64,000 nucleotides of DNA from Candidatus Krumholzibacteriota bacterium (lineage in GTDB: Bacteria > Krumholzibacteriota > Krumholzibacteriia > LZORAL124-64-63): the NCBI GenBank assembly GCA_022711765.1, contig JAKLEB010000002.1, positions 1,120,620-1,184,619 on the forward strand, in the 5' to 3' direction. A program made the translations under genes and the position numbers. The notes beneath the pieces are model-generated. The model was not told the DNA's origin. It did not search any database and was given only the letters and a program-made list of their open reading frames with translations. Shown piece by piece: positions 5,720 to 20,611 of this stretch (position 1 is its first letter; each line of letters opens with the position of its first letter).

Positions 5720-5910
5720 GACCAGCCCTCCCGACGGGGGTTCTCGAACCTCGCATGACTGAATCTACGGTATCAGTCGGCTGAGCGCCGCCCGTTCCCG
5801 GTCAGTCCGCCCCGGACCGCGAAATCGGACCCGCCCCGGTCGATCGTAGAATCACGCGGGCGTCACCGGGCGCCGGGTCCGGCAGCTCGACGCCGCGCGG
5901 CAACCGGTGC

Positions 5911-5950
5911 GCAAGAAGAAGAACCGGACGGCTCACGGGGAGCCGTCCGG
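5911..5950 (-). terminator. Rho-independent terminator for the 5998..6621 gene
   Basis: Perfect 11-bp stem CCGGACGGCTC / GAGCCGTCCGG (5924-5934 / 5940-5950) with a 5-nt loop. On the minus-strand RNA it is followed by the U-rich tract UUCUUCUUCUU (plus-strand gcaagaagaagaa, 5911-5923). Sits 48 nt downstream of the stop. Confidence 0.7.
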
Positions 5951-5997
5951 CTGGCTGGCGGAAGGACTGCGCCGGTGGACCGGCGCTGGTCGCGAGC

Positions 5998-6621
5998 CTA
6001 GTCGAACAGCGCCTTGACGCTCGACCAGCTCTGGTTGTCGGTGCCCACGGGGCCCGTGCCCGGGAAGTACAGCCACGCGTCGACCGGCTTGGTCACGCAG
6101 AGATTGTCGATCCAGTTCGAGCCGGCCCAGGGACTCGCGTTGTACGGACGGATCTCGACCACGAGGCCCTGGCCTTCCTGGGCCGCGCCGGCGGTCCAGG
6201 TGTAGCTCAGCTCGATCCACTCCTCGCCGGTGCCGCTGTAGGTACTGTTGCCGCTGGCACTGCCGGCGTAATCGTCGATGGTGCCGCCGGCGGTGGTCCA
6301 GTGGCCCCAGATGCGGCACGACGGGTTGCCGGTGATCATATCGAGGGTCATGATCGACGCCGTCACCTGGTCACCCTCGTGCAGACCGGTGATCCAGGCC
6401 ACGTACGCCTGAGGTGTGCCGGTCGCTCCGATTTCGTAGATCTCCAACGAATGGGTGCCCTCGAACGCCTGGGCTTCGGTGTTGGCGATATACATGTCAT
6501 CGGGCAGGTAGGCGCCGAGCATCGTGCCGCCATCTTCCCAGCCGTAGCACCAGGTATCCTGCGCCACGGCGACGCCAGCCATCAGGCACACCGCCGCGAA
6601 CAACGTGAACAAGGCCTTCAT
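5998..6621 (-). CDS. Small secreted hypothetical protein (207 aa, Cys-containing)
   Basis: ORF in the track. Signal peptide MKALFTLFAAVCLMAGVAVAQD. GAGAGGAG ribosome-binding site 8 nt upstream on the minus strand. The AT-rich promoter region lies directly upstream. Confidence 0.65.
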   Translation of the reverse strand: MKALFTLFAAVCLMAGVAVAQDTWCYGWEDGGTMLGAYLPDDMYIANTEAQAFEGTHSLEIYEIGATGTPQAYVAWITGLHEGDQVTASIMTLDMITGNPSCRIWGHWTTAGGTIDDYAGSASGNSTYSGTGEEWIELSYTWTAGAAQEGQGLVVEIRPYNASPWAGSNWIDNLCVTKPVDAWLYFPGTGPVGTDNQSWSSVKALFD

Positions 6622-6865
6622 GGTGAACTCCTCTCAGGTCTAGAACTCGAGGCAACGCGGCATCCGGGACCACCGCTCGAGGTTCCCCAGGCCGCTCACG
6701 CGACTGCGCTATTTTATCACGATTCGTAAGAGAAGTACACCCCGGGCGTGACGAAATATGTGATCATATGTAAACCAAGCGTTCGACTAGCCATATCTTT
6801 CCCTACGCGCAACGCCCATAAATACTGGATAAACGACAGACTGATAATGGATTACGTTATTTGAC

Positions 6866-6901
6866 CCGCGCTGGCGCCGGCGCTAGTTGCGCCGGCGCAA
6901 C
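6866..6901 (-). terminator. GC-palindrome hairpins at the end of the ABC permease gene, a candidate operon terminator
   Basis: Two self-complementary GC blocks, GGCGCCGGCGCT and GTTGCGCCGGCGCAAC, overlap the stop codon. On the minus-strand RNA they are followed by an A/U-rich tract (CAAAUAACGUAAUCCAUUAUC). Confidence 0.4.
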
Positions 6902-8220
6902 CGGTCGATCAGCACGGCGCCGAGGATCACGAGCCCGAGCACGACCTTCTGCGTGTAGCTCTCCACGTTGGTCAGGTTCATGCCGTTCTGGATGACAGCG
7001 ATGATGAACGCGCCGATCAGCGTGCCGAGCACCCGCCCCTCGCCGCCCGAGAGGCTCGTGCCGCCGACCACCACCGCGGCGATGACGTACAGCTCGTACA
7101 TCAGGCCGTAGGTCGGCGCGCCGCTCTTGAGCTGGCTCGCCATCAAGACCCCGCCGAGCCCCGCGAGCGCGCCGCACAGCGCGTAGGCGAAGAGCAGCAC
7201 CGCGCCCGTGCGCACCCCGGCGAGCCGCGCCGCCTCCGGATTGCCGCCGACCGCGTAGACGTACCGCCCCAGCGCGGTGCGGCTCATCAGCAGATGGGCG
7301 ACGGCGTAGAGGAGGAGCATGAGCCACACGGCCCACGGCACGCCCGCGAGCGGATCGACGCCGCGCCCCAGCGTCGTGATCGACTCCGGCGCGTCGTAGA
7401 TGGGCCGGCCGCGGGCGACGATGTAGGCGACCCCGCTCGCGACCTGCATCATCGCGAGCGTGGCGATGAACGGCGGCAGCCGGAACCGCACGATCATGGC
7501 GCCCGAGAAGAGCCCCGCGAGCGCGCAGAGCGCGATGGCGCCGAACCCGGCCGCGAACAGCGCGCCCGCGCCCGCGCCCGCTCCGCCCAGCGCGCGCACG
7601 AGCCAGGCGCACACGACCGCCGACAGCGCGATGAGCGACCCCACCGAGAGGTCGATCCCCGCGGTGATGATCACGAGCGTCATGCCGACCGCGACGATGG
7701 CGATCACCGCGATCTGGTTCGCGACGTTGCGCAGGTTGTCGGCGAGCAGGAAGGTCGGCCAGCGGTACGACGCGGGCGCGAGGACCGTGGCGCCGGCGAG
7801 GCCCGGCACCGCGGCAGCGATCGATCGCGCCGCCGGCAGGCCGGACGTGAGGGTGGCGAGCCAGATGTCGGCCGGGCCGTCGTCGACGAGACGCTCGCAG
7901 GCCGCGCGCAGCTCGGGCGGACCGCCGGCGGCTGTCGCGACGGCGGTGAAGCCTGCCGCGCGCAGCCGAGCGGCGAGGTCGTCGGAGAATCCGCGGTCCT
8001 GCTCGCTGTCGCGGATCAGGATCAGGATGGCCGCATCGGGCTCGGCGTGGCCGATGAGCTCGGTCGCCAGCTCGGCGGCGGCGCGGGCGCCCGTGGGGTG
8101 CTGGTCCTGCATGGTCAGCACGGAGAAGAGTACGCAGAGCAACAGCAGCACGCCGAGCATGCCGTAGCCCGCGAAGCGGCGGCGCAGGGCGCCGGTCAGG
8201 TTCGTCGCGTCAGGCGCCAT
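6883..8220 (-). CDS. Sugar ABC transporter permease (CUT2 / RbsC-like) with an ~120-aa periplasmic insertion after TM1
   Basis: ORF in the track. Multi-TM permease core resembling ribose/xylose-type permeases, with an 11-nt overlap onto the ATPase gene. Confidence 0.7.
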   Translation of the reverse strand: MAPDATNLTGALRRRFAGYGMLGVLLLLCVLFSVLTMQDQHPTGARAAAELATELIGHAEPDAAILILIRDSEQDRGFSDDLAARLRAAGFTAVATAAGGPPELRAACERLVDDGPADIWLATLTSGLPAARSIAAAVPGLAGATVLAPASYRWPTFLLADNLRNVANQIAVIAIVAVGMTLVIITAGIDLSVGSLIALSAVVCAWLVRALGGAGAGAGALFAAGFGAIALCALAGLFSGAMIVRFRLPPFIATLAMMQVASGVAYIVARGRPIYDAPESITTLGRGVDPLAGVPWAVWLMLLLYAVAHLLMSRTALGRYVYAVGGNPEAARLAGVRTGAVLLFAYALCGALAGLGGVLMASQLKSGAPTYGLMYELYVIAAVVVGGTSLSGGEGRVLGTLIGAFIIAVIQNGMNLTNVESYTQKVVLGLVILGAVLIDRLRRRN

Positions 8221-9721
8221 GAGGCTCCTTGGCCACGGCCAGGGCCAGCACGTCGGCCTGGCTCGCGGCGCGGGGATCGGGGATCTCGCCGGCGAGGCGA
8301 CCCTCGTGCATCACGAGGATGCGGTCGGCCATGCCGAGCACTTCCGGCAGCTCGCTCGAGATCATCACGACGGCCTTGCCGCGGGCGGCGAGGTCGTTGA
8401 TCAGCTCGTAGATCTCGTACTTGGCGCCGACGTCGATGCCGCGCGTGGGCTCGTCGAAGATCACGACGCGGGCGTCGCGCTCGAGCCAGCGCGCGACGAG
8501 CAGCTTCTGCTGATTGCCGCCCGAGAGCTGGCCGGCGCGCTGGTCGGGGCCGGCGACCTTGATGCGCAGGCGCGCGACGTGGCCGGCGAAGCGGTCGGCC
8601 TCCGTCGTCCGGTCCAGCCAGCCGGCGCGTGACCAGCGGTCGAGGTTGCCGAGCGCGAAGTTCTCGCGGGCGCCGAGGCCGAGCACGAGACCCTGGCCCT
8701 TGCGGTCCTCGGTCAAGAGCGCGATGCCAGCCCGGATCGCGGCGCGCGGCGAGCCCGGCCGGACCGCGCGACCGTCGACGCGCACGGTGCCCGCGCGCGG
8801 GCGGTCGGCGCCGAACACGAGGCGCGCGAGGTCGGTGCGGCCCGCGCCCACGAGGCCGGCGAGGCCGAGCACCTCGCCGGCGCGGACGGTGAAGGTCACC
8901 GGCTTGACGCGGCCGCCGCACAGGCCGTCGACCGCGAGCACGACCTCGCCACGCACGGCCGCGCGCGGGGGGAACTCGCGATCGAGGGGTCGGCCCACCA
9001 TCAGCTCGATGAGCCGGCCGCGGTCCAGCGCGGAGGCGGCCCAGACGCCGAGCAGCTCGCCATCCCGCATCACGGCGATGCGGTCGGCGAGGCGCGCGAC
9101 CTCGTCGAGGCGGTGGCTGATGAACACGAGGCCCAGGCCCTGGGCCTTCAGCTCGCCGAGCACCGCGAACAGGCGCTCGGTCTCGCGGGGCGTGAGGGCC
9201 GCGGTGGGCTCGTCGAGGATCAGGACGCGGGCGTCGGCCAGCAGCGCGCGGGCGATCTCGACGAGCTGGCGGTGGGCGAGGTCGAGCTGGGCGACGGGCA
9301 CGTCGGGGTCGACGTCGCAGCCGAGACGGGCGAGGACCTCGCGAGCGCGCTGGCGTTCTGCGGCGCGGTTGAGCGGACGCAGGAGCCGCGGCTCGCGGCC
9401 GAGGAAGAGGTTGTCGCGCACGGTGAGGCCCGGGACCTGGCTCAGCTCCTGATAGATCACCGCCACGCCGGCGCGGGCCATTTGCGCCGGCGCAAATCCG
9501 GTGAGGTCGCGGCCGTCGATCTCGACCGTGCCCGCGTCCGGCGCGTGCGCGCCCGAGACGACCTTGATGAGCGTGCTCTTGCCCGCGCCGTTCTCGCCGA
9601 CGAGCGCGAGGACCTCGCCAGCGCGGACGTCGAGGTCGGCGCCCGCCACGGCGACCACGCCGGGGAACGTCTTGCGCACGCCGCGCAGGCTCAACAGCGG
9701 GGTGTCAACGGCCGGCGGCAT
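8210..9721 (-). CDS. Sugar ABC transporter ATP-binding protein (tandem NBDs, RbsA-like)
   Basis: ORF in the track, 503 aa. Two Walker A motifs (GENGAGKST; GLVGAGRT) and an LSGGNQQK signature. Confidence 0.8.
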   Translation of the reverse strand: MPPAVDTPLLSLRGVRKTFPGVVAVAGADLDVRAGEVLALVGENGAGKSTLIKVVSGAHAPDAGTVEIDGRDLTGFAPAQMARAGVAVIYQELSQVPGLTVRDNLFLGREPRLLRPLNRAAERQRAREVLARLGCDVDPDVPVAQLDLAHRQLVEIARALLADARVLILDEPTAALTPRETERLFAVLGELKAQGLGLVFISHRLDEVARLADRIAVMRDGELLGVWAASALDRGRLIELMVGRPLDREFPPRAAVRGEVVLAVDGLCGGRVKPVTFTVRAGEVLGLAGLVGAGRTDLARLVFGADRPRAGTVRVDGRAVRPGSPRAAIRAGIALLTEDRKGQGLVLGLGARENFALGNLDRWSRAGWLDRTTEADRFAGHVARLRIKVAGPDQRAGQLSGGNQQKLLVARWLERDARVVIFDEPTRGIDVGAKYEIYELINDLAARGKAVVMISSELPEVLGMADRILVMHEGRLAGEIPDPRAASQADVLALAVAKEPHGA

Positions 9722-10670
9722 CGTCGCCCGCGTAGAGCTGGCAGGGGATGAGCTGCTGCGGGGGCACGGACTGACCGCTGAGGTACGCGGCCACCGCCTC
9801 GATCGTCATGCGGCCGATCTCGCGCGGCTGCTGCACGACGTCGGCGTGGATCTTGCCGGCGTTGATCGCCGCGCGCGCCTCGGGCACCGCATCGAAGCCG
9901 ACGATCACGATCTGGCCGAGCTTGCCCGCCTTCTCGACCGCCGCCAGGGCGCCGAGGGCGCTGTCGTCGTTGATGCCGAAGATCGCGTCGAGACCCGGCT
10001 GCGATTGCAGGATGTCCTCGGCGGTGCGGAAGGCGATGTCCTTCGTGCCGCGGCCGGGCAGCTTGGCGACGATCGTGACGCCGGCGTGCTTCGCGAGCTC
10101 CTCCTCGAAGCCCGCCACGCGCTGGATCACCGACTCGACCTCGGGATGGTCGATGATCGCGACCTCGCCTGAACCGCCGATCGCCTCCACGAGCGCCTGG
10201 GCGGCGAGGCGGCCGCCAGCCACGTTGTCGCTCGCGGTGTGGCAGACGATCTGCGCGTTGTCGGCGAGGACTGCGATGTCCGCGGTGAACACCGGGATGC
10301 CCGCCGCGTTGGCCGCGGTGACCGAGGTGCCGATCGAACGCGAGTCGCAGGGGGAGAGCACGATCGCGTCGACCTTTCGCACGAGGAAGTTCTCGAGCTG
10401 GTCCTTCTGCTTCGCGACGTCGAACTCGCCCGCCTGGACGAGGAGCTGGTAGCCGCGCTCGTTGGCGGCCTGCTGCAGGCCGGCCTCGAGGTCCTGGTAG
10501 AAGGGGTGGGTGCGGGTGAGGAGGGAGACGCCGATCACGGCCGCGGGCGTACCGGGCGCGCGGGGGGTGTCGGCGGACTTGCCGGCGTCGCCGTTGCTGC
10601 TGCAGCCGGCTAGGGCGGTGAGTGCAATCGCGACGACGATTGCTGGTGCCGTGCGCATGGAAGATCGCAT
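9705..10670 (-). CDS. Sugar ABC transporter periplasmic substrate-binding lipoprotein (RbsB-like)
   Basis: ORF in the track, 321 aa. Lipoprotein signal ...ALAGCSSNG. Periplasmic-binding-protein type I fold. Overlaps the ATPase gene start. Confidence 0.75.
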   Translation of the reverse strand: MRSSMRTAPAIVVAIALTALAGCSSNGDAGKSADTPRAPGTPAAVIGVSLLTRTHPFYQDLEAGLQQAANERGYQLLVQAGEFDVAKQKDQLENFLVRKVDAIVLSPCDSRSIGTSVTAANAAGIPVFTADIAVLADNAQIVCHTASDNVAGGRLAAQALVEAIGGSGEVAIIDHPEVESVIQRVAGFEEELAKHAGVTIVAKLPGRGTKDIAFRTAEDILQSQPGLDAIFGINDDSALGALAAVEKAGKLGQIVIVGFDAVPEARAAINAGKIHADVVQQPREIGRMTIEAVAAYLSGQSVPPQQLIPCQLYAGDDAAGR

Positions 10671-10868
10671 CGGGGCCTCCTCGAAATATTACGGTCCGTT
10701 GGCGTCGAACCTAGCATGTCCCGCGAGGCTACTCAACCCGACACCTGAAACCGGGAGTCGCTCAACAGCAACTACACTAGGACCGGCCCGTTCACTTCCC
10801 TTTGGCGGGCGTCAGAGACGAAATCTCCATGTGGACGAGAGTACCTGCCACAGGGGGTGGACGGGCCG

Positions 10869-13474
10869 GTTGTGGGTAGCCTACGGACCCTGATCGGTTA
10901 CACTTTTCCGCCTGGTGTCCACGTCAGTCCTCCAGTTGTGGGTGGCCTACGGACCCTGATCGGTTACACTAGAGGCGCTACCGCGCCGAGTACGGCGAGG
11001 TTGTGGGTGGCCTACGGACCCTGATCGGTTACACTCGGGGGCGCTAGGCGCTGGTCGCCGTACCAGTTGTGGGTGGCCTACGGACCCTGATCGGTTACAC
11101 TGAACGGCCGTCTGCCGAATCAGCACATGCCGTTGTGGGTGGCCTACGGACCCTGATCGGCTACACTCTGACCGCCCCCACTGACACCCCCCAAAGGGTT
11201 GTGGGTGGCCTACGGACCCTGATCGGCTACACTTGTCTGAACAATACCACAATTGCCCAAAAAGTTGTGGGTGGCCTACGGACCCTGATCGGCTACACTC
11301 GTACACCACTTGCTCAATCGTTCTTGCCAGTTGTGGGTAGCCTACGGACCCTGATCGGCTACACTCAGAGTCGCCGCGTCGCTGAATCTCCCCTTGTTGT
11401 GGGTGGCCTACGGACCCTGATCGGCTACACTGCTCGCCGGAGGCTAGGACCGAGAATTGAGGTTGTGGGTGGCCTACGGACCCTGATCGGCCACACTTAT
11501 CACCAAGAAAAGGAGCAAGACGCGACAGTTGTGGGTGGCCTACGGACCCTGATCGGCTACACTGAATCGCTCGCGATACTGCGTGATGGGCTTGTTGTGG
11601 GTGGCCTACGGACCCTGATCGGCTACACTCCTTGGAGCTGATGCCTGGTGAGTCCGTATGTTGTGGGTGGCCTACGGACCCTGATCGGCTACACTCGGCC
11701 GGGCTCACCGTGCGTTTCACGCAGAGTTGTGGGTGGCCTACGGACCCTGATCGGCTACACTTCCGTCGCCTGCAGCGTATGAGGCGGCGCCGTTGTGGGT
11801 GGCCTACGGACCCTGATCGGCTACACTGGATGGTCGGACCGCCAGGTCGTCAAGGTTGTTGTGGGTGGCCTACGGACCCTGATCGGCTACACTGCCGGGG
11901 ACCTGATCCTCACGACCGAAGACGTTGTGGGTGGCCTACGGACCCTGATCGGCTACACTCGGCACGGTGCGGCTGTCGATCTGGCTGAAGTTGTGGGTGG
12001 CCTACGGACCCTGATCGGCTACACTTCGCCGTGCGTTTCTCGAGTAGAGACTTCTGTTGTGGGTGGCCTACGGACCCTGATCGGCTACACTATCGACGAG
12101 GTTCCCCCAGGCGGCGGGATAGTTGTGGGTGGCCTACGGACCCTGATCGGCTACACTGTCGGCCGCTTTGATGAGAATGTCCTGGTAGTTGTGGGTGGCC
12201 TACGGACCCTGATCGGCTACACTCCGCCGCCGCTCGGCCGCGAATCGGGGACTGTTGTGGGTGGCCTACGGACCCTGATCGGCTACACTGGGCGGCGCGG
12301 TGTTCATCTCGACGCCCGAGTTGTGGGTGGCCTACGGACCCTGATCGGCTACACTAGCAGATCCACACGACCACTGGCCTGATGAGTTGTGGGTGGCCTA
12401 CGGACCCTGATCGGCTACACTTGCGCCTGCTTTGCTGGCAGCCGCGCGCTGGTTGTGGGTGGCCTACGGACCCTGATCGGCTACACTTGACAGACCTCCT
12501 AGTCGTCGTGGCTGGTGTTGTGGGTGGCCTACGGACCCTGATCGGTTACACTTCGCACGATGATGCCCTGCGCCCGGCGAAGTTGTGGGTGGCCTACGGA
12601 CCCTGATCGGTTACACTATGCCTCCCTGCATGAGCACCGCGAGCCTGTTGTGGGTGGCCTACGGACCCTGATCGGTTACACTGGCCGTGGAGCTCGACCG
12701 CGTGGCACTCAAGTTGTGGGTGGCCTACGGACCCTGATCGGTTACACTCCTGGCCTCGACGCGGGTAACCCGGTCGCCGTTGTGGGTGGCCTACGGACCC
12801 TGATCGGTTACACTCGTCTACGCGAAATTCTGGACCCCAGGGCAGTTGTGGGTGGCCTACGGACCCTGATCGGTTACACTCGAAGTCGTGCCAGGCATTG
12901 GTGGCGGACAGTTGTGGGTGGCCTACGGACCCTGATCGGTTACACTGCAGCCATCCTCGTGGGTCCATCCAGGGCAGTTGTGGGTGGCCTACGGACCCTG
13001 ATCGGTTACACTTCAACGCGCGGCGGCGATATGCGTCGCGCAGTTGTGGGTGGCCTACGGACCCTGATCGGTTACACTTGTAATCGGAGACGTCAGAAAG
13101 GCTGGGAAGTTGTGGGTGGCCTACGGACCCTGATCGGTTACACTCCGCGGCGACCGAGGCCGTGATCACTCGCAGTTGTGGGTGGCCTACGGACCCTGAT
13201 CGGTTACACTCGCGCACGATCGCGACCGTGCGGTATGGGAGTTGTGGGTGGCCTACGGACCCTGATCGGTTACACTACTGCGCGAGTTCGCTAGCGAGCT
13301 CGGAGAGTTGTGGGTGGCCTACGGACCCTGATCGGTTACACTCAGGCCGATCGCTTCGAGCGGATGCTCACGGTTGTGGGTGGCCTACGGACCCTGATCG
13401 GTTACACTAGACGACAGCCAAAACCGAGAGCGGAGGACGTTGTGGGTGGCCTACGGACCCTGATCGGTTACACT
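10869..13474 (+). CRISPR. CRISPR array with 40 direct repeats of 36 bp and 39 spacers (35 of 30 nt, 4 of 29 nt); type II-C style
   Basis: Repeat consensus GTTGTGGGTGGCCTACGGACCCTGATCGG[T/C]TACACT. Repeats start at 10869, 10935, 11000, 11066 and then mostly every 66 bp up to 13439. There are three blocks of variants: R1-R4 GGTTACACT, R5-R25 GGCTACACT, R26-R40 GGTTACACT. R1 and R8 carry GGGTAGCC; R10 carries GGCCACACT. Strand assignment (plus, toward cas2) follows from the repeat 5'-GTTGTGG start typical of type II repeats, the -10-like TACACT at each repeat 3' end, and the plus-strand tracrRNA. Confidence 0.95.
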
Positions 13475-13475
13475 A

Positions 13476-13515
13476 CCTCCCTCTCAACCGGTTGGATTAC
13501 CACTGGTTGAGAGGG
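13476..13515. terminator. Long hairpin between the last repeat and the cas2 stop, a candidate bidirectional terminator
   Basis: CCCTCTCAACC GGTTGGATTACCACT GGTTGAGAGGG: an 11-bp perfect outer stem plus an inner TGG/CCA stem. Sits 1 nt after repeat 40 and 9 nt from the cas2 stop. No U-tract. Confidence 0.4.
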
Positions 13516-13523
13516 ATCCAGGG

Positions 13524-13853
13524 TCAGAAAAGCTGGATCTGCGAGGGCTGGGATTCTGGTTTCGTCGCGGTTCTGCTGAGGTAGCATTCCATTCTCGCGT
13601 ATTGCTTGTCGGTGAATTTCAGGATCCGCACCTGCCCGTTTGGTGGCATGATGGATTTTACTCGCCCGACGTGGACAGCGGCGTTCTCGTCGCTCGGGCA
13701 CGGTCTCGAATACACCGAGTATTGTAGCATGTCGAACCCGTCCTGGATCAGGGATTTCCGGAATTCCGTCGCAGCCTTGCGCTGAGGCTTCGTGATCACG
13801 GGTAGATCGAACATCACCAGTACCCACATGGCTCTCATCCCGCTCAGTTTCAC
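13524..13853 (-). CDS. cas2: CRISPR-associated endoribonuclease Cas2
   Basis: ORF in the track, 109 aa. N-terminus MKLSGMRAMWVLVMFDLPV resembles the type II Cas2 N-terminus (MSYRYMRMILMFDMP). ATGA overlap with the cas1 stop. Confidence 0.85.
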   Translation of the reverse strand: MKLSGMRAMWVLVMFDLPVITKPQRKAATEFRKSLIQDGFDMLQYSVYSRPCPSDENAAVHVGRVKSIMPPNGQVRILKFTDKQYARMECYLSRTATKPESQPSQIQLF

Positions 13854-14782
13854 GACGGCTGGATCTCCGGTAGTTGGAGTTCCTTCGCCGCGACCGGTGC
13901 CGAGGCTCCGTTCTTGACCTGTTCCTCGATCGCGTGCGCGAGGGAACTTGCGGTCGACTCCAGGGCAACGGCGAGCGAGGTGCTTTCTCCCAGGATGGAT
14001 ACCTCGCGATAGAGCACCCCGATCAACCCCTGCTTGACGTCTTTGTCGATCTCCAGCCTGCCTTGGACCGCGAACTCGCGAACGACCGAGTCGACGACGG
14101 GCCTATACGGCTCCATGACATCGTCGGCGAGGCAGAATCCGCTGTATCTGTTCCGGTGGTGAAGCCCGATCACCGGCTGCAGGCCGGCCATGCAGAGTGC
14201 TCGTGCTGTCGCCGCGCGGAGGACCGCGTAACCGTAGTTCAACAGGTTGTTGGGCGGTGCTCCTTCGCGATGTCGCCGGAACGGATGCTTGGTGATGGCG
14301 GCGCATTCTCGAAACACGAGGGGCCAGTAGATCCGGGAGGCCTGACTCTCGTGAGCGCCGATGTTGCCACTGCGGGTCGTTTCAGCCAGCCTACGTAACG
14401 GGACCGCATCATCGCCCCGCAGCAGAGCCGCCTGGTTGGCGATCTTCGCTCCGACGATCCTAGCCCAGAGGTTCTTCTTGAGAGGCGCCGACATCTCCGA
14501 CTGCAGGCGCACTCGTTCACTGTGCAGAGAGTGCACGTCGAGCGGGATGAACATGCCGCACGGGTGAAACGTCTCGTCGCAGGCGAGGATCGCGCCACCG
14601 GTCTTGCCGAGCGCTGCCATGACGCCGGACGAGATCGAGATCCCGGTCGACTCCAGGACGATGAGACCGAGATCCTCGGCGGGGATGTCCGCGAGAGTCT
14701 CGTCATCACGAGTGATCGTGATCCTGGTATTGCGGAGCGCCAATTGCGTGCCGCGCGTAGCGACCGAGATCGTGCGTTTCAT
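13850..14782 (-). CDS. cas1: CRISPR-associated endonuclease Cas1 (type II)
   Basis: ORF 13850..14806. Start moved to the ATG at 14782 (MKRTISVATRG...), which has a GGAGG ribosome-binding site 6 nt upstream; the 14806 ATG has none. Cas1 fold, adjacent to cas2 and cas9. Confidence 0.85.
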   Translation of the reverse strand: MKRTISVATRGTQLALRNTRITITRDDETLADIPAEDLGLIVLESTGISISSGVMAALGKTGGAILACDETFHPCGMFIPLDVHSLHSERVRLQSEMSAPLKKNLWARIVGAKIANQAALLRGDDAVPLRRLAETTRSGNIGAHESQASRIYWPLVFRECAAITKHPFRRHREGAPPNNLLNYGYAVLRAATARALCMAGLQPVIGLHHRNRYSGFCLADDVMEPYRPVVDSVVREFAVQGRLEIDKDVKQGLIGVLYREVSILGESTSLAVALESTASSLAHAIEEQVKNGASAPVAAKELQLPEIQPS

Positions 14783-14832
14783 GAGGCCTCCAGCCCCTGG
14801 CCCCATGAAGATCGACGCCGGTATTGCCGACT

Positions 14833-17800
14833 TTAATCCCTGGCCTGTCGAATCCTACCGATCGGGTCCACCTGGACCTTCGTAATTGAGTGCTTGCGCC
14901 AGTCTACGAAAGAAGAAATACGTCGGAATGGCTGCTTGTTTCCATGAGTGGCCGGTCGACTGTCTCGACAATCACGAATTGTGATATCGAACCGGCTAGA
15001 GGGTGTTGGCTCGCCGGTTAATTTCTGGACTACTCCTATGATACGTTCTCCCGTGACGGGGTTTACGATCCAGACCGACTCTTTCCGCGCCAGCGACATC
15101 ACGAACACCTTCCCCCCTCCGTGATCTCGATTTACCGCGGGAAGCCCCTGTCGACGGACCCGATCGGCCGCAGCCATGGTCGAGACTGCAGTAGCCCACA
15201 TGGCCCTGGGTGCGCCCTGGTCGTCGGTCTCTGCGGAGGCGACGATCTCGAGATGATGGTTGTTGCCCAGGATCGCGAACCGGTGTTTCAGCTGACGCGC
15301 GTTCTTGATGGCGACCTCGATCCTGACTTTCCGAATCGGGATGCCGTTCGCCATGAGGATCGGCTCGGCGTGCCAATTCTTGGGCAGCGTGTTGCTCTGG
15401 CCATCCCAGCCATGGATGCGCAAGCGATCCTCGATCAAGCGACGACACGTGTCATCGCGGATCGTGGCGATGTTCGACCCAGTGAGCGTATCGAGCCGTT
15501 TTCGCGTGACGTAGCGGTCAGCAGCGATCTCGCCGTCACGATTGCGGGCAGGCCCATAGAAGGTCTCTTCGTGGAACGCGCCGCTGATCTTCCGCAGGGC
15601 TCGGTGTGAGACCGTTATGCGCGACGCGAGGTCGCGCGCCGTATCGCGTAACGTGTCCCAAGGAACCGGGAACGGGGGCCGGCCCGGCTCTGGGTGGTGA
15701 TCGCGAGATTTCCAGTAATCCTGATATCTCTTTAGAAGCGCTCGCGAGGAGAGGGCGATCACCAAGGCGTCGATCGCGTGGTGTCGGTGGTCATCACGAG
15801 ACTTGTAGGGTTTTCCATCGTCGTCGACGCGATCCGAAAGGAGCGGTTCACCCTTGGCGTCGTACAGGTCCGGCAGGATGTTGTTCAAGCCCCACTGTCG
15901 CCTCAATTCGGCGGTCAAGCCGCCGCGGCACGACTGGATGGCCTTTTCGCCAGTGCGCAACTCCGGCGGGAAGAGCAATGACAAGTACTCCACGACGGCT
16001 CGCGTGAGATAACGCGTATCGTTGAGCTGGCGGGCCGCGAAATCCTCGGTGTCGAGTTCGGCGCGTTTGAGGCGTTCGAACTTTCCACGTGAAAGCGCAC
16101 CGGAGTGCTGCAGGCCGGCTGCCCGCCGCAGGAGTTGACGGAAAGCCTCGGAACTCTCGCCGAGCCACTCCATCGGCGTCCTGTCGCCCTTCTCCTTGTT
16201 GGCGAGTCGATGGACGAGCACCTTGTTCGCCTGCGAGTCGTCGAGACTGCGCCACCGCGGTAGGATGTGGTCGATCTCCCACTCGCCGCCCGCGAACAAT
16301 TCGGAAACAGGGATCGGCTGGCCGGTATAGAGGCAGTGCCGCCCCTGTTCCTCCCAGATCAGCCACCGATTCACGTCATCGCGACTTCGCGGGTTGCCGC
16401 CAAACTCGGCCACACGGCTCGCCGCCTCTTCGCGCACCCGTTCCCGGTCCCTGAGCGTCTTGGCCTCTTCGCGTCGCCGTTCCGCGCCGTCCTTCATATC
16501 CCGGGCGAGCTCGACGACGATCCTGGCCGGGCAACCGTGTTCTCGGATCAGCGCATTCACGACCTTGCGTACTTCGACCAATGCGCGACGAACGACGGGG
16601 TTCGTGAGATTCTCGAGATCGGTCGGCAGATCGCTCGACGACAACGGCGGCAGCGTCGCGAAACGCGAACTCCCGGGCCGTTGCGGGTAGGCTTTCTGGA
16701 TCGCCTCGAATTCGTCCAACCCGTCGGCGAGGAGCGGCATCAACTTCCGAATCGCTTCGAGCGAATAGCCCAGATAGCCGTCGGCCGGGGTCCACCGGAC
16801 GAGTTTCTCGATCGATTCCGGTTCGACACCGAGGCCTTGCAGAACAGCGATGAGGTCTGTCGGATCATCCGCCTGGACGAGGTGGTCGCGCAAACGCTGT
16901 CGCGTTTGCTCGGCGACCTTTCGCCAGGCCGGGCGGCCAACCGTGGTCGCGAGCTTGTGTTCCACGGAGTTGCCGAGCAACGCCGACCGCCCGCCGCGCT
17001 CCAGGTTGAACTGTGCGTCGGGGTCGACGCCGGTCTTGGCCAGGGCTTTGCGGATGTCGTCGAATTTCACGCGGTCCTTCGACATGAGAAGATCGAGAAC
17101 GACCTGTCGCTCGCCCGCGGTGAGCACCCGCTCGCGCCCGAGGTGCTCACTCACGCGGAGGTTCGCAGTCTCCTTGTGGATGCGAAACTGTTGGGCCTCC
17201 CAGAGCCCTCGCGGGCAGCAGTACTGGCCGGGCTCCAACGGGCATAATCGTACCGACGGCGCGCGATGCAGATTGGCGCGTGATGGCGCGGCCAACCGCC
17301 TCTCTTCCGTCACCTCGAACGGGTGCTGGAAGAAGATCGTGTGACGCAACCGCGACACGAGTGGAGCGGATAGCAGATCCGGATGGCACGTCTGCTGGCG
17401 GGCGACGATCGCTTCGAACTCGGCAAGGTACATGTCTCGCCGCGTGTGGCGATTTCGCAGCCGCGGCTGGTCGACAGGACCGGTGCCTCGTGCGAGGGTG
17501 TGGAGGTACTCACCGAGGGATCGGCAGCCAGAATCCTTGATCGCACGTTCGAGCACGCCGATCTCCTCGAGGATCCCCTCATCCTCTTTCGCCTTCCCAC
17601 TCTTGCGGTTGGACTGGAAGCCCCGGCGCTGGCCAAGGTGGAAAACTGCGCGACCGATCTCGTACGGCTCGAGATCTTCCGTCAACGCGCGTGCACGCAG
17701 TTCGTACGGATCGCTTCGAAAAAGGTCTTCGAGCAACTTGTCATCGACAGGCAGAAGCCCGCCTTCTCGCAACTGCGCCTTCAGGCGGTTACGACGGGCA

Positions 17801-18042
17801 TTCCGCCGCGCGTGGTTCCGCCGCATGCATCTCGCAGTCCGCCGAGACTGGTTGAGAGACATCTCCTTCGCGGTCCCGAAATTGTGCAATCCCGCCTCGA
17901 ATACCCGGACGCCCAAGGGGGGATGGCCAGCACTGTCGGTGTCGGCGAAACCTACAGGCTCAAACGAATTCGGGTTGGCTTCGAGCATCGCCCAACCGAC
18001 GGAGTTCGGCCCGAGATCAAGCCCGAGGATGTACGCTTTCAT
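14833..18042 (-). CDS. cas9: Cas9 (type II-C, 1069 aa)
   Basis: ORF in the track. RuvC-I ILGLDLGPNSVGWAML. Arginine-rich bridge helix RRTARCMRRNHARRNARRNRLK. HNH EIDHILPRWRSLDDSQANKVLV. RuvC-III HHAIDALVIA. GGGGAGGA ribosome-binding site 8 nt upstream of the ATG. Compact size and cas9-cas1-cas2 with no csn2 or cas4 fit type II-C. Confidence 0.95.
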   Translation of the reverse strand: MKAYILGLDLGPNSVGWAMLEANPNSFEPVGFADTDSAGHPPLGVRVFEAGLHNFGTAKEMSLNQSRRTARCMRRNHARRNARRNRLKAQLREGGLLPVDDKLLEDLFRSDPYELRARALTEDLEPYEIGRAVFHLGQRRGFQSNRKSGKAKEDEGILEEIGVLERAIKDSGCRSLGEYLHTLARGTGPVDQPRLRNRHTRRDMYLAEFEAIVARQQTCHPDLLSAPLVSRLRHTIFFQHPFEVTEERRLAAPSRANLHRAPSVRLCPLEPGQYCCPRGLWEAQQFRIHKETANLRVSEHLGRERVLTAGERQVVLDLLMSKDRVKFDDIRKALAKTGVDPDAQFNLERGGRSALLGNSVEHKLATTVGRPAWRKVAEQTRQRLRDHLVQADDPTDLIAVLQGLGVEPESIEKLVRWTPADGYLGYSLEAIRKLMPLLADGLDEFEAIQKAYPQRPGSSRFATLPPLSSSDLPTDLENLTNPVVRRALVEVRKVVNALIREHGCPARIVVELARDMKDGAERRREEAKTLRDRERVREEAASRVAEFGGNPRSRDDVNRWLIWEEQGRHCLYTGQPIPVSELFAGGEWEIDHILPRWRSLDDSQANKVLVHRLANKEKGDRTPMEWLGESSEAFRQLLRRAAGLQHSGALSRGKFERLKRAELDTEDFAARQLNDTRYLTRAVVEYLSLLFPPELRTGEKAIQSCRGGLTAELRRQWGLNNILPDLYDAKGEPLLSDRVDDDGKPYKSRDDHRHHAIDALVIALSSRALLKRYQDYWKSRDHHPEPGRPPFPVPWDTLRDTARDLASRITVSHRALRKISGAFHEETFYGPARNRDGEIAADRYVTRKRLDTLTGSNIATIRDDTCRRLIEDRLRIHGWDGQSNTLPKNWHAEPILMANGIPIRKVRIEVAIKNARQLKHRFAILGNNHHLEIVASAETDDQGAPRAMWATAVSTMAAADRVRRQGLPAVNRDHGGGKVFVMSLARKESVWIVNPVTGERIIGVVQKLTGEPTPSSRFDITIRDCRDSRPATHGNKQPFRRISSFVDWRKHSITKVQVDPIGRIRQARD

Positions 18043-18098
18043 TTGGATGATCCTCCCCAGAAGTCACCGATCGGCCCCAACTCAAGCAGCATACTATC

Positions 18099-18127
18099 TT
18101 GACAATGCGAAATCCAGCCCCTAAGCT
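18099..18127 (+). promoter_or_regulatory. Sigma70-like promoter of the predicted tracrRNA
   Basis: -35 TTGACA (18099-18104), 17-nt spacer, -10 TAAGCT (18122-18127). The predicted transcription start at ~18134 coincides with the first base of the anti-repeat. Confidence 0.55.
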
Positions 18128-18133
18128 GTCACC

Positions 18134-18230
18134 AGTGTAACCGATCAGGGTCTGTGGTCCCATCCATACCAAGGACTCAGATCCGCAGGCTCTGCGGCTC
18201 GGCTTCGGCCGAGCCGCAACCGTTTCCGGG
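18134..18230 (+). ncRNA. tracrRNA: Predicted tracrRNA, divergent from cas9
   Basis: 18134-18152 AGTGTAACCGATCAGGGTC is a 19/19 match to the reverse complement of the repeat 3' half (T-type). Complementarity to the repeat 5' half continues imperfectly, with G-U wobbles, through ~18170. Two GC hairpins follow: CCGCAG-GCT-CTGCGG at 18183-18197, and GCTCGGC-TTCG-GCCGAGC (UUCG tetraloop) at 18197-18214. Lies in the 200-bp gap between the GH92 stop and the cas9 start. Confidence 0.65.
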
Positions 18231-18244
18231 AGGTCCGCACCGCG

Positions 18245-20611
18245 CTACCGCGACATCGAGTACGGCGCCGCCGCGTCGCCTGTCGCCCGCCCCCGATCCG
18301 CCTCCGCACCCATCACGAACCGCAACGTTCCGCCCCGCGCGACCTCCTCGTGCGTGATCCAGTTCCGCTCGAGCGCGACGCCATTCAACGAGACTTCCCG
18401 CACGTACATGTTCGCCGCCCCCTGGTTCTCCGCGACCACCGTGAACGTCCGCCCGCCCGGAAGCGCGATCTCCGCCCGCCGCACGCACGGGCTGCCGAGC
18501 ACGTACTGGTCGCTCCCCGGCGCCACGGGGTAGAAGCCGAGTGCGCTGAAGATGTACCACGCCGACATCTGCCCGCAGTCGTCGTTGCCGCATAGCCCGT
18601 CCGGCGCCGGCCGGTACATCGTGTCCAGGATCTCGCGCACCCGCGCCTGCGTCCGCCACGGCCGCTCGATGAACGCGTCGAGGTACGGCACGTGGTGGCT
18701 CGGCTCGTTGCCGTGGACGTAGTTGCCGATCATCCCCGCGCGCGTGATGTCCTCGTTCGCGGCGAAGGTCTCGTCCGCGACCTGCATCACGAACAGCGTG
18801 TCGAGCCAGGCGGCGAGGCGCTCGCGGCCGCCGATCAGCTCTGCGAAGCCGGCCACATCGTGCGGCACATACAGCGAGTAGTTCCAGGCGTTGCCCTCGA
18901 TGTAGCCCTGGCCGTGCGTGTCGAGCGGATCGAACCCCGCGGGGAACGACCCGTCGGCGTTGCGCGCGCGCAGGAAGCCGCTCGACGGATCCCACAGCGC
19001 GCGCCACGACCCGGCGCGGCGATCGTACTCCGCCGCCACGTCGGCGCGCCCCAGCGACTCCGCCATCCGCGCGATCGTCCAGTCGTCGAACGCGTACTCG
19101 AGGGTCTGCGAGGCCGCGTAGCGGCTGCTGTCGGCCGGCACCCAGCCGAGGCGGCGGTACGCGCCGAGGCCGTCGTAGCGGTCGTAGGTGGCGCTCGCCA
19201 GCATCGCGTCGAGCGCCTCCGCGGGGTCGAAGCCGCGCACGCCCTTGACCCAGGCGTCCGCGATCACCGGCACCGCGTGGTAGCCGATCATGCACCAGTT
19301 CTCGGCGCCGTGATGGGACCACACCGGCAGGATGCCGTGCACGCTCTCGCGCCGGTGGGCGAGCATCGACTGCACGAAGTCGCCCGTGCGGGCCGGTTGC
19401 AGGAGCGTGAGCAACGGGTGCAACGCGCGGTAGGTGTCCCACAGCGAGAAGATCGTGTGGTTCGTATAGCCCTCGGCGCGGTGCACGTTCTGGTCGAGGC
19501 CGCGGTACTGGCCATCGACATCGCTCCAGACGACCGGGCCCAGGTGACAGTGGTAGAGCGCGGTGTAGAAGTTGACGAGGCCCGCGGGGTCGGCCTCGAC
19601 CACGATCGCGCCGAGCGCCCGGTCCCAGGCCGCGGCGGTCCGCCGGCGCGCGCCGTCGAAGTCCCAGCCGGGGGCCTCGGCGGCGAGGTTCGCGAGCGCG
19701 CCCGCCGTGCTCGTGCCAGAGAGCGCTACCTTCACGAGGATCTGCTCGCCGGCCTCGGTCGCGAAGTCGAAATGGCATTTCACGCGCCGGCCGGCGCGCT
19801 CCGGGAATCCGCGGTCCTCGTCGAACTTGCGCCAGAAGCCGCGGTAGACGATCGGCTCCTCGTTGCGTAGGCCGAAGGACGCAACCGGCTTGCTGAACGC
19901 GATCGCGAAGTAGAGCGTGCGCGTCCGCGCCCAGCCGCTCGTCTGCCGCGAGCCGGTGAGCAACGTGTCGTTCTCCATGCGCACGTACGACCACACGGTC
20001 TTGCCGGGGTAGTCGTAGATGTTCGACGTGAGGTCGAGGATCAGGTGAGCCTCGTCGGTGGCCGGGAACGTGTAGCGGTGCAGGCCGACCCGCTCGGTCG
20101 CCGTCAGCTCGGCCTCGATGTCGTGGTCGAGCAGCGTGACGCGATAGTAGCCGGGACTCGCCGACTCCTGCGCGTGCGAGAAGCGCGAGCGGTAGCCGAG
20201 GTCGGGCTGCGCGGCGGGGCCCGGTTCGAGCACGAGGTCGCCGATCGTGGGGGCGATGAGCAGGTCGCCGAGGTCGCTGTGGCCGGTGCCGTTGAAGTGG
20301 GTGTGGGCGAACCCCACGATCGTCGAGTCGCCGTACTGGTAGCCGCTGCAGTACCGGTACGCGGCCGCGTTGTAGCCCTCGCCGAGGCTGTAGGGTACGA
20401 TGTCGGTCTCCGGGCTGAGCTGCACGAGCCCGAACGGCGCCGTGGCGCCGGGATACGTGTGGCCCATCTCGGCGGTCCCGATGAACGGATCGACGAGGTC
20501 GCGCGGCGCCGGCGCCGGCTCCTCGGCGAACGCGATCGCGGCAGCCAGGCCGAGCGCGGTGATGAGCGAGGAACGTCCACCCCGGCGCCGACCGTTCGCG
20601 GGTCCGTGCAT
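18245..20611 (-). CDS. GH92 family alpha-1,2-mannosidase (secreted)
   Basis: ORF in the track, 788 aa. Signal peptide. GH92 hallmark GNEPSHHVPYL. Confidence 0.85.
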   Translation of the reverse strand: MHGPANGRRRGGRSSLITALGLAAAIAFAEEPAPAPRDLVDPFIGTAEMGHTYPGATAPFGLVQLSPETDIVPYSLGEGYNAAAYRYCSGYQYGDSTIVGFAHTHFNGTGHSDLGDLLIAPTIGDLVLEPGPAAQPDLGYRSRFSHAQESASPGYYRVTLLDHDIEAELTATERVGLHRYTFPATDEAHLILDLTSNIYDYPGKTVWSYVRMENDTLLTGSRQTSGWARTRTLYFAIAFSKPVASFGLRNEEPIVYRGFWRKFDEDRGFPERAGRRVKCHFDFATEAGEQILVKVALSGTSTAGALANLAAEAPGWDFDGARRRTAAAWDRALGAIVVEADPAGLVNFYTALYHCHLGPVVWSDVDGQYRGLDQNVHRAEGYTNHTIFSLWDTYRALHPLLTLLQPARTGDFVQSMLAHRRESVHGILPVWSHHGAENWCMIGYHAVPVIADAWVKGVRGFDPAEALDAMLASATYDRYDGLGAYRRLGWVPADSSRYAASQTLEYAFDDWTIARMAESLGRADVAAEYDRRAGSWRALWDPSSGFLRARNADGSFPAGFDPLDTHGQGYIEGNAWNYSLYVPHDVAGFAELIGGRERLAAWLDTLFVMQVADETFAANEDITRAGMIGNYVHGNEPSHHVPYLDAFIERPWRTQARVREILDTMYRPAPDGLCGNDDCGQMSAWYIFSALGFYPVAPGSDQYVLGSPCVRRAEIALPGGRTFTVVAENQGAANMYVREVSLNGVALERNWITHEEVARGGTLRFVMGAEADRGRATGDAAAPYSMSR

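What the first reader, a model, noticed from the sequence alone, without database searches (positions are those of the whole stretch)
10869..13474. Block-wise repeat polymorphism (T-type R1-R4, C-type R5-R25, T-type R26-R40) with 29-nt spacers clustered at the C-to-T junction
Position 28 of the repeat is T in repeats 1-4 and 26-40 but C in repeats 5-25. Repeat 10 is additionally GGCCACACT. Repeats 1 and 8 share a G-to-A change (GGGTAGCC). Three of the four 29-nt spacers (S25, S26 and S27, at 12488-12646) sit exactly at the C-to-T transition; the fourth is S2. Because new units copy the leader-proximal repeat, such blocks record the acquisition history. An alternative explanation is recombination between two arrays, or an internal duplication. 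The tracrRNA anti-repeat matches the T-type.
Basis: seen in the sequence. Interest (0 to 1): 0.55.

Follow-up and report, generated by a model that had tools for sequence, protein, structure and literature searches.

The report
Repeat-variant blocks in a CRISPR-Cas9 array
A 40-repeat CRISPR array of a Cas9 (type II-C) system in an uncultivated Krumholzibacteria bacterium carries a one-base repeat variant in three contiguous blocks; the pattern is real and records the array's growth history, but it is an ordinary kind of CRISPR microevolution.

Summary
There are 40 repeats of 36 nt and 39 unique spacers at 10869-13474. The variable base is T in R1-4, C in R5-25 and T in R26-40, but it is repeat position 30, not 28. 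R10 carries T31C. R1 and R8 carry G10A. S2 and S25-27 are 29 nt. Three separately assembled metagenome contigs show the identical pattern, so it is not an assembly artefact.

The array belongs to a canonical type II-C locus: divergent tracrRNA, cas9, cas1, cas2, then the array transcribed toward cas2. Published work on II-C systems places new spacers at the cas2-proximal repeat, so R1 is oldest and R40 newest. T is ancestral: every relative has T30, and the tracrRNA has A opposite it. C30 gives an A·C mismatch that costs about 4 of 58 kcal/mol.

The history is therefore T, then C (copied 21 times), then T again. That needs either an exact back-change in the terminal repeat or recombination with a T-type sister array, and I cannot separate the two. 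Internal duplication is refuted. The 29-nt cluster is marginal, because relatives have 15-21% 29-nt spacers. This is a new member of a known kind, of low to moderate interest.

The parts
10869..13474 (+). CRISPR array: 40 x 36-nt repeats and 39 unique spacers. The crRNA sense is the + strand, so the array is transcribed toward cas2.
   Evidence: Searches give the parse. Searches give the orientation, from the same-strand anti-repeat and the tracrRNA tail.
10869..11101 (+). Oldest block, R1-R4, T at repeat position 30 (the ancestral state). R1 also carries G10A and is the 'extra' first repeat.
   Evidence: One search shows G10A costs 5.8 kcal/mol of tracrRNA pairing.
11132..12487 (+). Middle block, R5-R25, C at position 30 (derived; A.C mismatch with the tracrRNA). 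It includes R8 (G10A, 11330-11365) and R10 (T31C, 11462-11497).
12517..13474 (+). Newest block, R26-R40, T at position 30. R40 (13439-13474) is the inferred acquisition-site repeat.
12488..12646 (+). S25, S26 and S27, three consecutive 29-nt spacers starting at the C-to-T switch. The fourth 29-mer, S2, is at 10971-10999.
10772..10879 (+). Long hairpin formed by the upstream flank and the first 11 nt of R1. [quoted passage not shown]
   Evidence: z = -5.4; 0 of 200 shuffles fold as well; -65.3 kcal/mol. Relatives have hairpins abutting their first repeat.
13478..13516 (.). 15-bp hairpin between R40 and the cas2 stop codon. It sits on the leader side of the acquisition site and is probably a terminator between the convergent array and cas operon.
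   Evidence: z = -5.5; 11 of 15 pairs keep pairing through compensatory changes in 7 relatives.
13524..13853 (-). cas2
   Evidence: TIGR01573, 78.6 bits.
13850..14806 (-). cas1 (type II, NMENI class)
   Evidence: TIGR03639, 217.9 bits.
14833..18042 (-). cas9, 1069 aa
   Evidence: TIGR01865, 598 bits, full length; the exact protein is named Cas9 in three Candidatus Krumholzibacteria MAG records.
18099..18127 (+). Promoter-like TTGACA-17 nt-TAAGCT for the tracrRNA, divergent from cas9.
   Evidence: Read directly. The same TTGAC...TAnnnT arrangement occurs upstream of the anti-repeat in all relatives.
18134..18225 (+). tracrRNA: anti-repeat at 18134-18166 (AGTGTAACCGATCAGGGTCTGTGGTCCCATCCA), followed by a conserved tail with two hairpins.
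   Evidence: The tail is nearly invariant and hairpin 2 shows compensatory changes.

Best explanation
The array is the memory bank of a canonical type II-C CRISPR-Cas9 system. It grows at its cas2-proximal end, at R40. Each insertion splits and re-copies the terminal repeat, so a change in that repeat is inherited by every later unit. The ancestral repeat had T at position 30. After spacer S4 was taken up, a T-to-C transition arose in the terminal repeat and was copied through the next 20-21 insertions (R5-R25). At the insertion of S25 the terminal copy returned to T, by a C-to-T back-transition or a short gene conversion from a T-type copy. That state was then copied through the last 14 insertions (R26-R40). 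The return to T would be favoured in two ways. GC-to-AT is the commonest spontaneous change. T also restores the A-U pair with the tracrRNA in a stem whose pairing is kept by covariation in relatives. R8 (G10A) and R10 (T31C) are one-off changes in copies that were no longer terminal. G10A in R1 is the usual decay or inactivation of the oldest, spacer-less first repeat. What is shown: the pattern, its reality, the locus type, the strand, the ancestral state and the pairing consequences. What is inferred: the acquisition polarity (from experiments in other II-C systems) and the way T was restored.
For: The block pattern has an exact P of 3e-10. The identical pattern is present in three independent assemblies. 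The locus has cas9, cas1 and cas2 only, with a same-strand anti-repeat and a conserved tracrRNA. In II-C systems new units enter between cas2 and the adjacent repeat: this was shown experimentally in Riemerella and Campylobacter and is summarised. The first repeat is the oldest and is usually mutated in its first 15 nt, which fits R1 G10A. All relatives, at 54-86% Cas9 identity, have T30 and tracrRNA A7, and positions 28 and 29 covary between repeat and anti-repeat. Predicted duplex energies are -58.5 kcal/mol for the T type and -54.2 for the C type. All spacers are unique and all repeats are exactly 36 nt. All five inferred repeat changes are transitions and fall on only three sites (P = 0.018 if sites were hit uniformly), which suggests few tolerated or mutable sites and makes recurrence at position 30 less surprising.
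Against: An exact reversion at one specific base is improbable a priori: about 1 in 108 for a uniform substitution, or a few percent among GC-to-AT transitions. No intermediate array was found, for example one ending at S24 with a C-type terminal repeat. The acquisition polarity was not demonstrated in this lineage. Published orientation tools disagree with one another for some II-C arrays. The benefit of T over C is modest in predicted energy, and position 30 probably lies beyond the RNase III cut, so selection for reversion may be weak.
Confidence: 0.45

Rival explanations
1. Recombination between two sister arrays. A C-type lineage (S1-S24/25) and a T-type lineage that never had the mutation diverged after S4. 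A crossover inside a repeat (R25 or R26), possibly anchored in the cas genes on the other side, replaced the cas2-proximal end of the C-type array with the T-type lineage's newest spacers (S25/26-S39). Only one point mutation is then needed.
For: This needs no reversion. Recombination between homologous arrays is documented, although it is uncommon (5 of 70 S. thermophilus strains, none detected in E. coli or S. agalactiae). A diverged lineage with the identical 36-nt T-type repeat and a nearly identical leader exists (L003/L004, Cas9 86% identical), so compatible partners occur in nature. The same G10A change on two different position-30 backgrounds (R1 and R8) could also reflect exchange between repeats.
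Against: No sister array sharing any of these spacers was found. The repeat is absent from the genome and metagenome collections. All 18 contigs carrying the exact Cas2 have the same gene neighbourhood. The three full arrays I could read are identical apart from two spacer SNPs, so the sampled population looks clonal. With the most likely crossover site (repeat positions 1-29 of R26), the run of 29-nt spacers S25-S27 would be split between the two parental lineages.
Confidence: 0.35
2. The C block was inserted into a formerly contiguous T-type array (R1-R4 + R26-R40). This could have happened by repeated ectopic (internal) spacer integration at one mutated internal repeat, or by an intra-array rearrangement (duplication plus deletions) that moved a block.
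For: It needs only one point mutation. Ectopic integration is known in natural type II-A strains. If the two T blocks were once adjacent, all four 29-nt spacers would fall within six consecutive old spacers. My own count gives P of about 0.004 for that, but the test is post hoc.
Against: About 20 successive insertions would have had to occur at one internal site while the normal site stayed idle. S25, which would have to mimic the leader, does not resemble the sequence that follows R40 at the junction (TGACAG... versus ACCTCC...). A rearrangement would need at least three repeat-repeat events. No duplicated spacers remain.
Confidence: 0.08
3. Artefact: sequencing errors, a collapsed assembly, or a chimera of two strains' arrays.
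For: Arrays are hard to assemble. The k=31 Logan contigs of the same organism do collapse the array to R1-S1-R-leader, or stop inside repeats.
Against: Three independent long-contig assemblies (1.32 Mb, 0.70 Mb and 0.75 Mb contigs from different samples and pipelines) give the same 40 repeats, the same block string and the same spacer order. Every spacer is unique, so each junction must be supported by reads that span it. Random errors would not form three runs (P = 3e-10).
Confidence: 0.02
4. Internal duplication of part of the array created the second T block.
Against: No spacer is repeated. The longest word shared by any two spacers is 11 nt, which is about what chance gives.
Confidence: 0

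Closest known systems
Type II-C CRISPR-Cas9 loci of Neisseria meningitidis and Campylobacter jejuni
   Same: The gene order is the same: tracrRNA upstream of cas9, then cas9-cas1-cas2, then the array, with no csn2 or cas4. The 36-nt repeat starts GTTGT and ends in a -10-like hexamer (here TACACT). The array is read toward cas2. The first repeat is the oldest. The resemblance to the Neisseria repeat GTTGTAGC...GCTACAAT is from my own memory.
   Different: The host is a high-GC Krumholzibacteria MAG. Repeat-internal promoters are not demonstrated here, and there is no TG extended -10. The internal repeats carry an unusually large number of variant copies: 23 variant bases in 1368 nt, against about 1.07 per 1000 nt for II-C internal repeats. 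These trace to only about four events.
Riemerella anatipestifer type II-C CRISPR1 (He et al. 2018, PMC6008519)
   Same: It is a II-C system with 30-bp spacers, from a bacterium I place, from my own knowledge, in the same broad FCB group. New units were shown experimentally to enter between cas2 and the adjacent repeat, with occasional off-length spacers.
   Different: Its repeat is 47 bp and its leader is A/T-rich. Here the repeat is 36 nt and a G+C-rich hairpin follows the terminal repeat directly.
Rare internal repeat variants in type II-A arrays (S. agalactiae CRISPR1, PMC4466440)
   Same: Single-nucleotide repeat variants coexist with the typical repeat in one array and are read as markers of lineage.
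   Different: There the variants make up 1.5% of repeats. Here one variant makes up 52% of the array and is flanked on both sides by the ancestral type.
Related Krumholzibacteriia II-C loci (L005 JBFXKG010000003.1; L010 JADHED010001973.1)
   Same: They have the same architecture, tracrRNA tail, terminal hairpin, repeat 3' end TTACACT and mix of 29- and 30-nt spacers.
   Different: Their repeats are uniform, apart from a mutated first repeat in L005. There is no block polymorphism.

Membership tests
Type II-C CRISPR-Cas | Cas9 effector gene | tested here: met
   TIGR01865, 598 bits, full-length match over 1069 aa. The exact protein is named Cas9 in NCBI MAG records.
Type II-C CRISPR-Cas | Adaptation module is cas1-cas2 only, with no csn2 or cas4 | tested here: met
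   Only cas1 (TIGR03639) and cas2 (TIGR01573) lie between cas9 and the array. The flanking genes are a GH92 glycosidase and a sugar ABC transporter.
Type II-C CRISPR-Cas | tracrRNA with an anti-repeat complementary to the repeat | tested here: met
   Anti-repeat at 18134-18166, with predicted duplex energy -58.5 kcal/mol. The promoter and tail are conserved in 6 loci, and repeat and anti-repeat covary at positions 28 and 29. There is no Rfam hit.
Type II-C CRISPR-Cas | Array transcribed opposite to the cas operon, with new spacers entering at the cas2-proximal (3') repeat | tested here: inconclusive
   The strand follows from the same-strand anti-repeat and the tracrRNA tail. The acquisition end is taken from the literature. 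It is supported only indirectly here, by the mutated first repeat R1 and by the hairpin conserved next to R40.
Type II-C CRISPR-Cas | Promoter inside each repeat | not testable with these tools
   The repeat ends in TACACT (a TAnnnT match), and this end is invariant in all relatives although other paired positions vary. The consensus scan found no sigma-70 site. This needs 5'-end RNA mapping.
Type II-C CRISPR-Cas | First ('extra') repeat mutated in its first 15 nt and/or preceded by a hairpin or terminator | tested here: met
   R1 carries G10A. The hairpin at 10772-10879 has z = -5.4.
Simple polarised-acquisition record (one mutation per variant block) | Variant repeats are contiguous | tested here: met
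   Three runs, P = 3e-10.
Simple polarised-acquisition record (one mutation per variant block) | Each state arises once, so the ancestral state does not reappear on the newer side | tested here: not met
   T reappears in R26-R40 after 21 C-type repeats. T is ancestral according to all relatives.
Inter-array recombination | Sister arrays share spacer blocks in a conflicting order | not testable with these tools
   No sister array was retrievable. The repeat is absent from the two large collections. The three readable arrays are identical, and the other contigs are hidden as duplicates.
Internal tandem duplication of repeat-spacer units | Duplicated spacers | tested here: not met
   All 39 spacers are unique.

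The most novel reading that the evidence does not exclude
The return to T was not chance or import but a directed or selected correction. On this reading the acquisition-site repeat is kept complementary to the tracrRNA, either by strong selection on newly acquired spacers or by short-patch gene conversion. The donor could be the anti-repeat, which shares a perfect 19-nt identity with repeat positions 18-36 (spanning position 30) about 4.7 kb away, or the old T-type repeats. The array would then be a natural record of a tolerated 'mismatch era' of 21 acquisitions followed by repair. The recurrent G10A change might likewise be a selected way to silence individual crRNAs, namely the extraneous one from R1 and the S7 guide at R8.
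Probability: 0.1. Interest if true: 0.45.

Novelty: new member of a known kind. Interest (0 to 1): 0.2.

Why it matters
The finding matters mostly as a clean worked example. In a type II-C array the chronological order runs from the cas-distal to the cas2-proximal end. A repeat SNP can therefore be used as an internal clock marker, and here it shows that at least two switches occurred at the acquisition-site repeat during 39 acquisitions. It also shows that a repeat carrying a mismatch to the tracrRNA in the distal stem was good enough to be used for about 21 successive acquisitions. That is a natural tolerance datum for guide design with this small (1069 aa), uncharacterised Cas9 family. It does not reveal a new mechanism.

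Tried and rejected
1. An exact search for the repeat (27 nt, Y at position 30) in genome contigs and metagenome contigs found nothing, so no sister arrays could be compared.
2. Cas9-based locus searches returned only distant relatives at 53-62% identity. The closest relative (86%; L003/L004) has contigs that stop at the first repeat.
3. Protospacer searches all failed. I tried the whole array against the phage collection and seven spacers (S39, S25, S26, S27, S34, S7, S10) against IMG/VR. There is therefore no PAM, no independent check of orientation, and no test of whether S25-S27 target one virus.
4. No spacer matches elsewhere in the 64-kb window beyond a 7-mismatch chance hit.
5. I tried to count arrays through a spurious 195-aa ORF that is called inside the array, and through the 383-aa Cas9 fragment P0122. 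Neither is on record.
6. Logan contig ends inside R2 and R40 looked at first like read-level evidence for the T/C branch. I rejected this, because k=31 graphs break there for any 36-nt repeat.
7. I tested whether G10A in R1 stabilises the upstream hairpin. The effect is negligible: -71.2 versus -70.9 kcal/mol.
8. The similarity of S25 to the leader (a shared ACCTCC) is offset by 6 nt from the junction, so I rejected it as support for ectopic integration.
9. Rfam has no family matching the tracrRNA region.
Full report
**1. What is in the sequence**

The region 10869-13474 holds 40 copies of a 36-nt repeat, GTTGTGGGTGGCCTACGGACCCTGATCGGYTACACT, separated by 39 spacers.
It is T in R1-R4, C in R5-R25 and T in R26-R40.
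- R10 also has T31C. R1 and R8 both have G10A.
- Spacers are 30 nt, except S2, S25, S26 and S27, which are 29 nt.

Every item in the finding is therefore correct apart from the position index. With 19 T and 21 C, three or fewer runs has an exact probability of 3e-10. All 39 spacers are unique, and the longest word shared by any pair is 11 nt. This rules out an internal duplication.

**2. Is it real?**

The exact Cas2 of this locus occurs on 18 public contigs, 14 of them longer than 0.2 Mb. I could read three full-length, independently assembled copies.
- ENA ERZ795055 NODE_2 (1.32 Mb) is identical to the window across 3705-19829.
- JGI 3300009776 (0.70 Mb) has one SNP, at window 11636 in S12.
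- JGI 3300009771 (0.75 Mb) has one SNP, at window 12826 in S30.

All three have 40 repeats with the same TTTT-C21-T15 string. By contrast, k=31 Logan contigs of the same organism collapse the array to R1-S1-R-leader or stop inside a repeat. That is what an assembly artefact looks like here. The block pattern is a fixed feature of a nearly clonal, repeatedly sampled population. NCBI records name the exact Cas9 as coming from 'Candidatus Krumholzibacteria bacterium' MAGs.

**3. Context**

Downstream on the minus strand lie cas9 (18042-14833, 1069 aa, TIGR01865 at 598 bits), cas1 (NMENI type) and cas2. There is no csn2 or cas4. This is a type II-C locus.

An anti-repeat sits on the + strand at 18134-18166.
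- It is preceded by TTGACA-17 nt-TAAGCT (18099-18127).
- It is followed by a tail with two hairpins.
- Promoter, anti-repeat and tail are conserved upstream of cas9 in every relative I retrieved, at 54-86% Cas9 identity. The second hairpin shows compensatory changes.

Because the anti-repeat is an inverted copy on the same strand, crRNA and tracrRNA are both read from the + strand. The tracrRNA diverges from cas9, and the array is transcribed toward cas2. This is the usual II-C layout.

**4. Which end is new?**

Published experiments show that type II-C systems add repeat-spacer units between cas2 and the adjacent repeat, that is, at the 3' end of the array in transcript sense. This was shown in Riemerella anatipestifer and is reported there for Campylobacter jejuni. 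It is summarised by Feussner et al. 2025 and by the CRISPR-evOr paper. The first repeat is therefore the oldest. It is mutated in 60% of II-C arrays, mostly within its first 15 nt, and is often preceded by a hairpin or terminator.

This array fits that description.
- R1 carries G10A.
- The flank 10772-10879 folds with the first 11 nt of R1 into a long hairpin (z = -5.4).
- The related arrays L005 and L010 also have hairpins abutting their first repeat, and L005's first repeat is mutated.
- At the other end, a 15-bp hairpin (13478-13516) lies between R40 and the cas2 stop. Its pairing is kept by compensatory changes at 11 of 15 pairs across seven loci.

I therefore read the array chronologically from R1 (oldest) to R40 (newest). 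This polarity is inferred, not demonstrated, for this lineage.

**5. Which state is ancestral, and what does C do?**

Every relative has T at position 30 and the invariant 3' end TTACACT. Every tracrRNA starts AGTGTAA, with A7 opposite position 30. Positions 28 and 29 differ between relatives, and the anti-repeat changes with them. So T is ancestral, and pairing in this distal stem is maintained by selection. C30 produces an A·C mismatch.

Predicted duplex energies with the anti-repeat are:

| Repeat | Energy (kcal/mol) |
|---|---|
| T type | -58.5 |
| C type | -54.2 |
| R10 | -52.2 |
| R1 | -52.7 |
| R8 | -48.4 |

The C type is thus slightly worse but clearly still able to pair, which fits its use through 21 units.

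Position 30 is also the base just upstream of a -10-like TACACT at the end of the repeat. R10's T31C would remove the first T of that hexamer. Whether these repeats carry promoters, as in Neisseria and Campylobacter, cannot be tested here. The simple sigma-70 scan found nothing.

**6. History**

With growth at R40, the sequence of states at the acquisition-site repeat was T, then C after S4, then T again at S25. Copying of the terminal repeat explains why each state forms a block. The reappearance of the ancestral base needs a second event.

*Option A, in-situ restoration.* This is a C-to-T back-transition, or a short gene conversion from a T-type copy.
- It is a priori rare for one specific base.
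- However, GC-to-AT transitions are the commonest spontaneous change.
- T restores pairing with the tracrRNA.
- The five inferred repeat changes are all transitions and hit only three sites (10, 10, 30, 30, 31). This has P = 0.018 under uniformity and suggests a narrow set of mutable or tolerated sites.

*Option B, recombination.* A crossover inside a repeat joins this array to a sister array that never acquired C.
- It needs one mutation fewer, and it is a documented though uncommon process.
- I found no sister array.
- The only other lineage with the same repeat (L003/L004) has contigs that stop at the array.

*Option C, insertion of the C block into a contiguous T array.* This could be ectopic integration (known in II-A) or a rearrangement. 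It is less parsimonious, and S25 does not mimic the leader.

I rate A at about 0.45, B at about 0.35, C at about 0.08 and an artefact at about 0.02.

**7. The 29-nt spacers**

Given 4 of 39, a run of three has P = 0.016. It has P = 0.0026 if the run must also touch a block boundary, but that condition was chosen after seeing the data. In relatives, 29-nt spacers are a normal minority: 3/20 in L005, two of them adjacent, and 3/14 in L010. I treat the cluster as suggestive at most. It does not discriminate between options A and B unless spacer length is autocorrelated in time.

**8. Comparison with what is known, and verdict**

Contiguous inheritance of a repeat SNP follows from the duplication of the acquisition-end repeat stated; I found no paper describing such blocks. 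Rare internal repeat variants are described, and subtype-wide surveys exist. This array is unusual only in degree: 23 variant bases in 1368 nt of internal repeats, against about 1.07 per 1000 nt for II-C. It is also unusual in showing the ancestral state on both sides of the derived block.

The locus is a typical type II-C system in a little-studied phylum. I score it as a new member of a known kind, with an interest of about 0.2.

Noticed in passing
window 11636 (S12) and 12826 (S30): The only two differences between the window and two other independent assemblies are both A-to-C changes, and both fall inside spacers. About 35 kb was compared pairwise (22.6 kb and 12.3 kb). The joint chance of both landing in spacers is about 0.005. 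They could be population variants concentrated in the array or a sequence-context error. Unexplained.
   Followed up: partly
window 10772-10879: A long hairpin is formed by the flank upstream of the array and the first 11 nt of R1 (-65 kcal/mol; z = -5.4). It contains CTACACT, which mimics a repeat 3' end. Relatives L005 and L010 also have a hairpin abutting their first repeat. [quoted passage not shown]
   Followed up: partly
window 13478-13516: A 15-bp G+C-rich hairpin starts 4 nt after the acquisition-site repeat R40 and ends 8 nt before the cas2 stop. Its structure is conserved with compensatory changes at 11 of 15 pairs in seven loci. It is likely a terminator between the convergent array and cas transcripts. 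It could also mark the integration site, in place of an A/T-rich leader.
   Followed up: partly
window 10869-10904 (R1) and 11330-11365 (R8): The same G10A change occurs in two non-adjacent repeats with different position-30 states. It breaks a G-C pair with the tracrRNA in the part of the duplex kept in mature crRNA (5.8 kcal/mol). In R8 it would weaken the crRNA that carries spacer S7. No target of S7 was found.
   Followed up: partly
window 18099-18225: The tracrRNA gene has a near-consensus TTGACA-17 nt-TAAGCT promoter and a tail (ATACCAAGGACTCAGATCCGCAGGCTCTGCGG...CCGCAACCGTTT) that is almost invariant across Cas9 proteins only 54-86% identical. It has no Rfam family.
   Followed up: yes
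L014/L019 (Logan SRR4244739), equivalent to window 10869-13474: The k=31 assembly collapses the 40-repeat array into R1-S1-one T-type repeat-leader. The locus then looks as if it had a single spacer. This is a caution for anyone counting spacers from such assemblies.
   Followed up: yes
window 11696-11725 (S13) and 12026-12055 (S18): The two spacers share an 11-nt word, CCGTGCGTTTC. About 0.14 such matches are expected by chance among 39 spacers, so this is probably nothing. It could mean that the two spacers target related elements.
   Followed up: no
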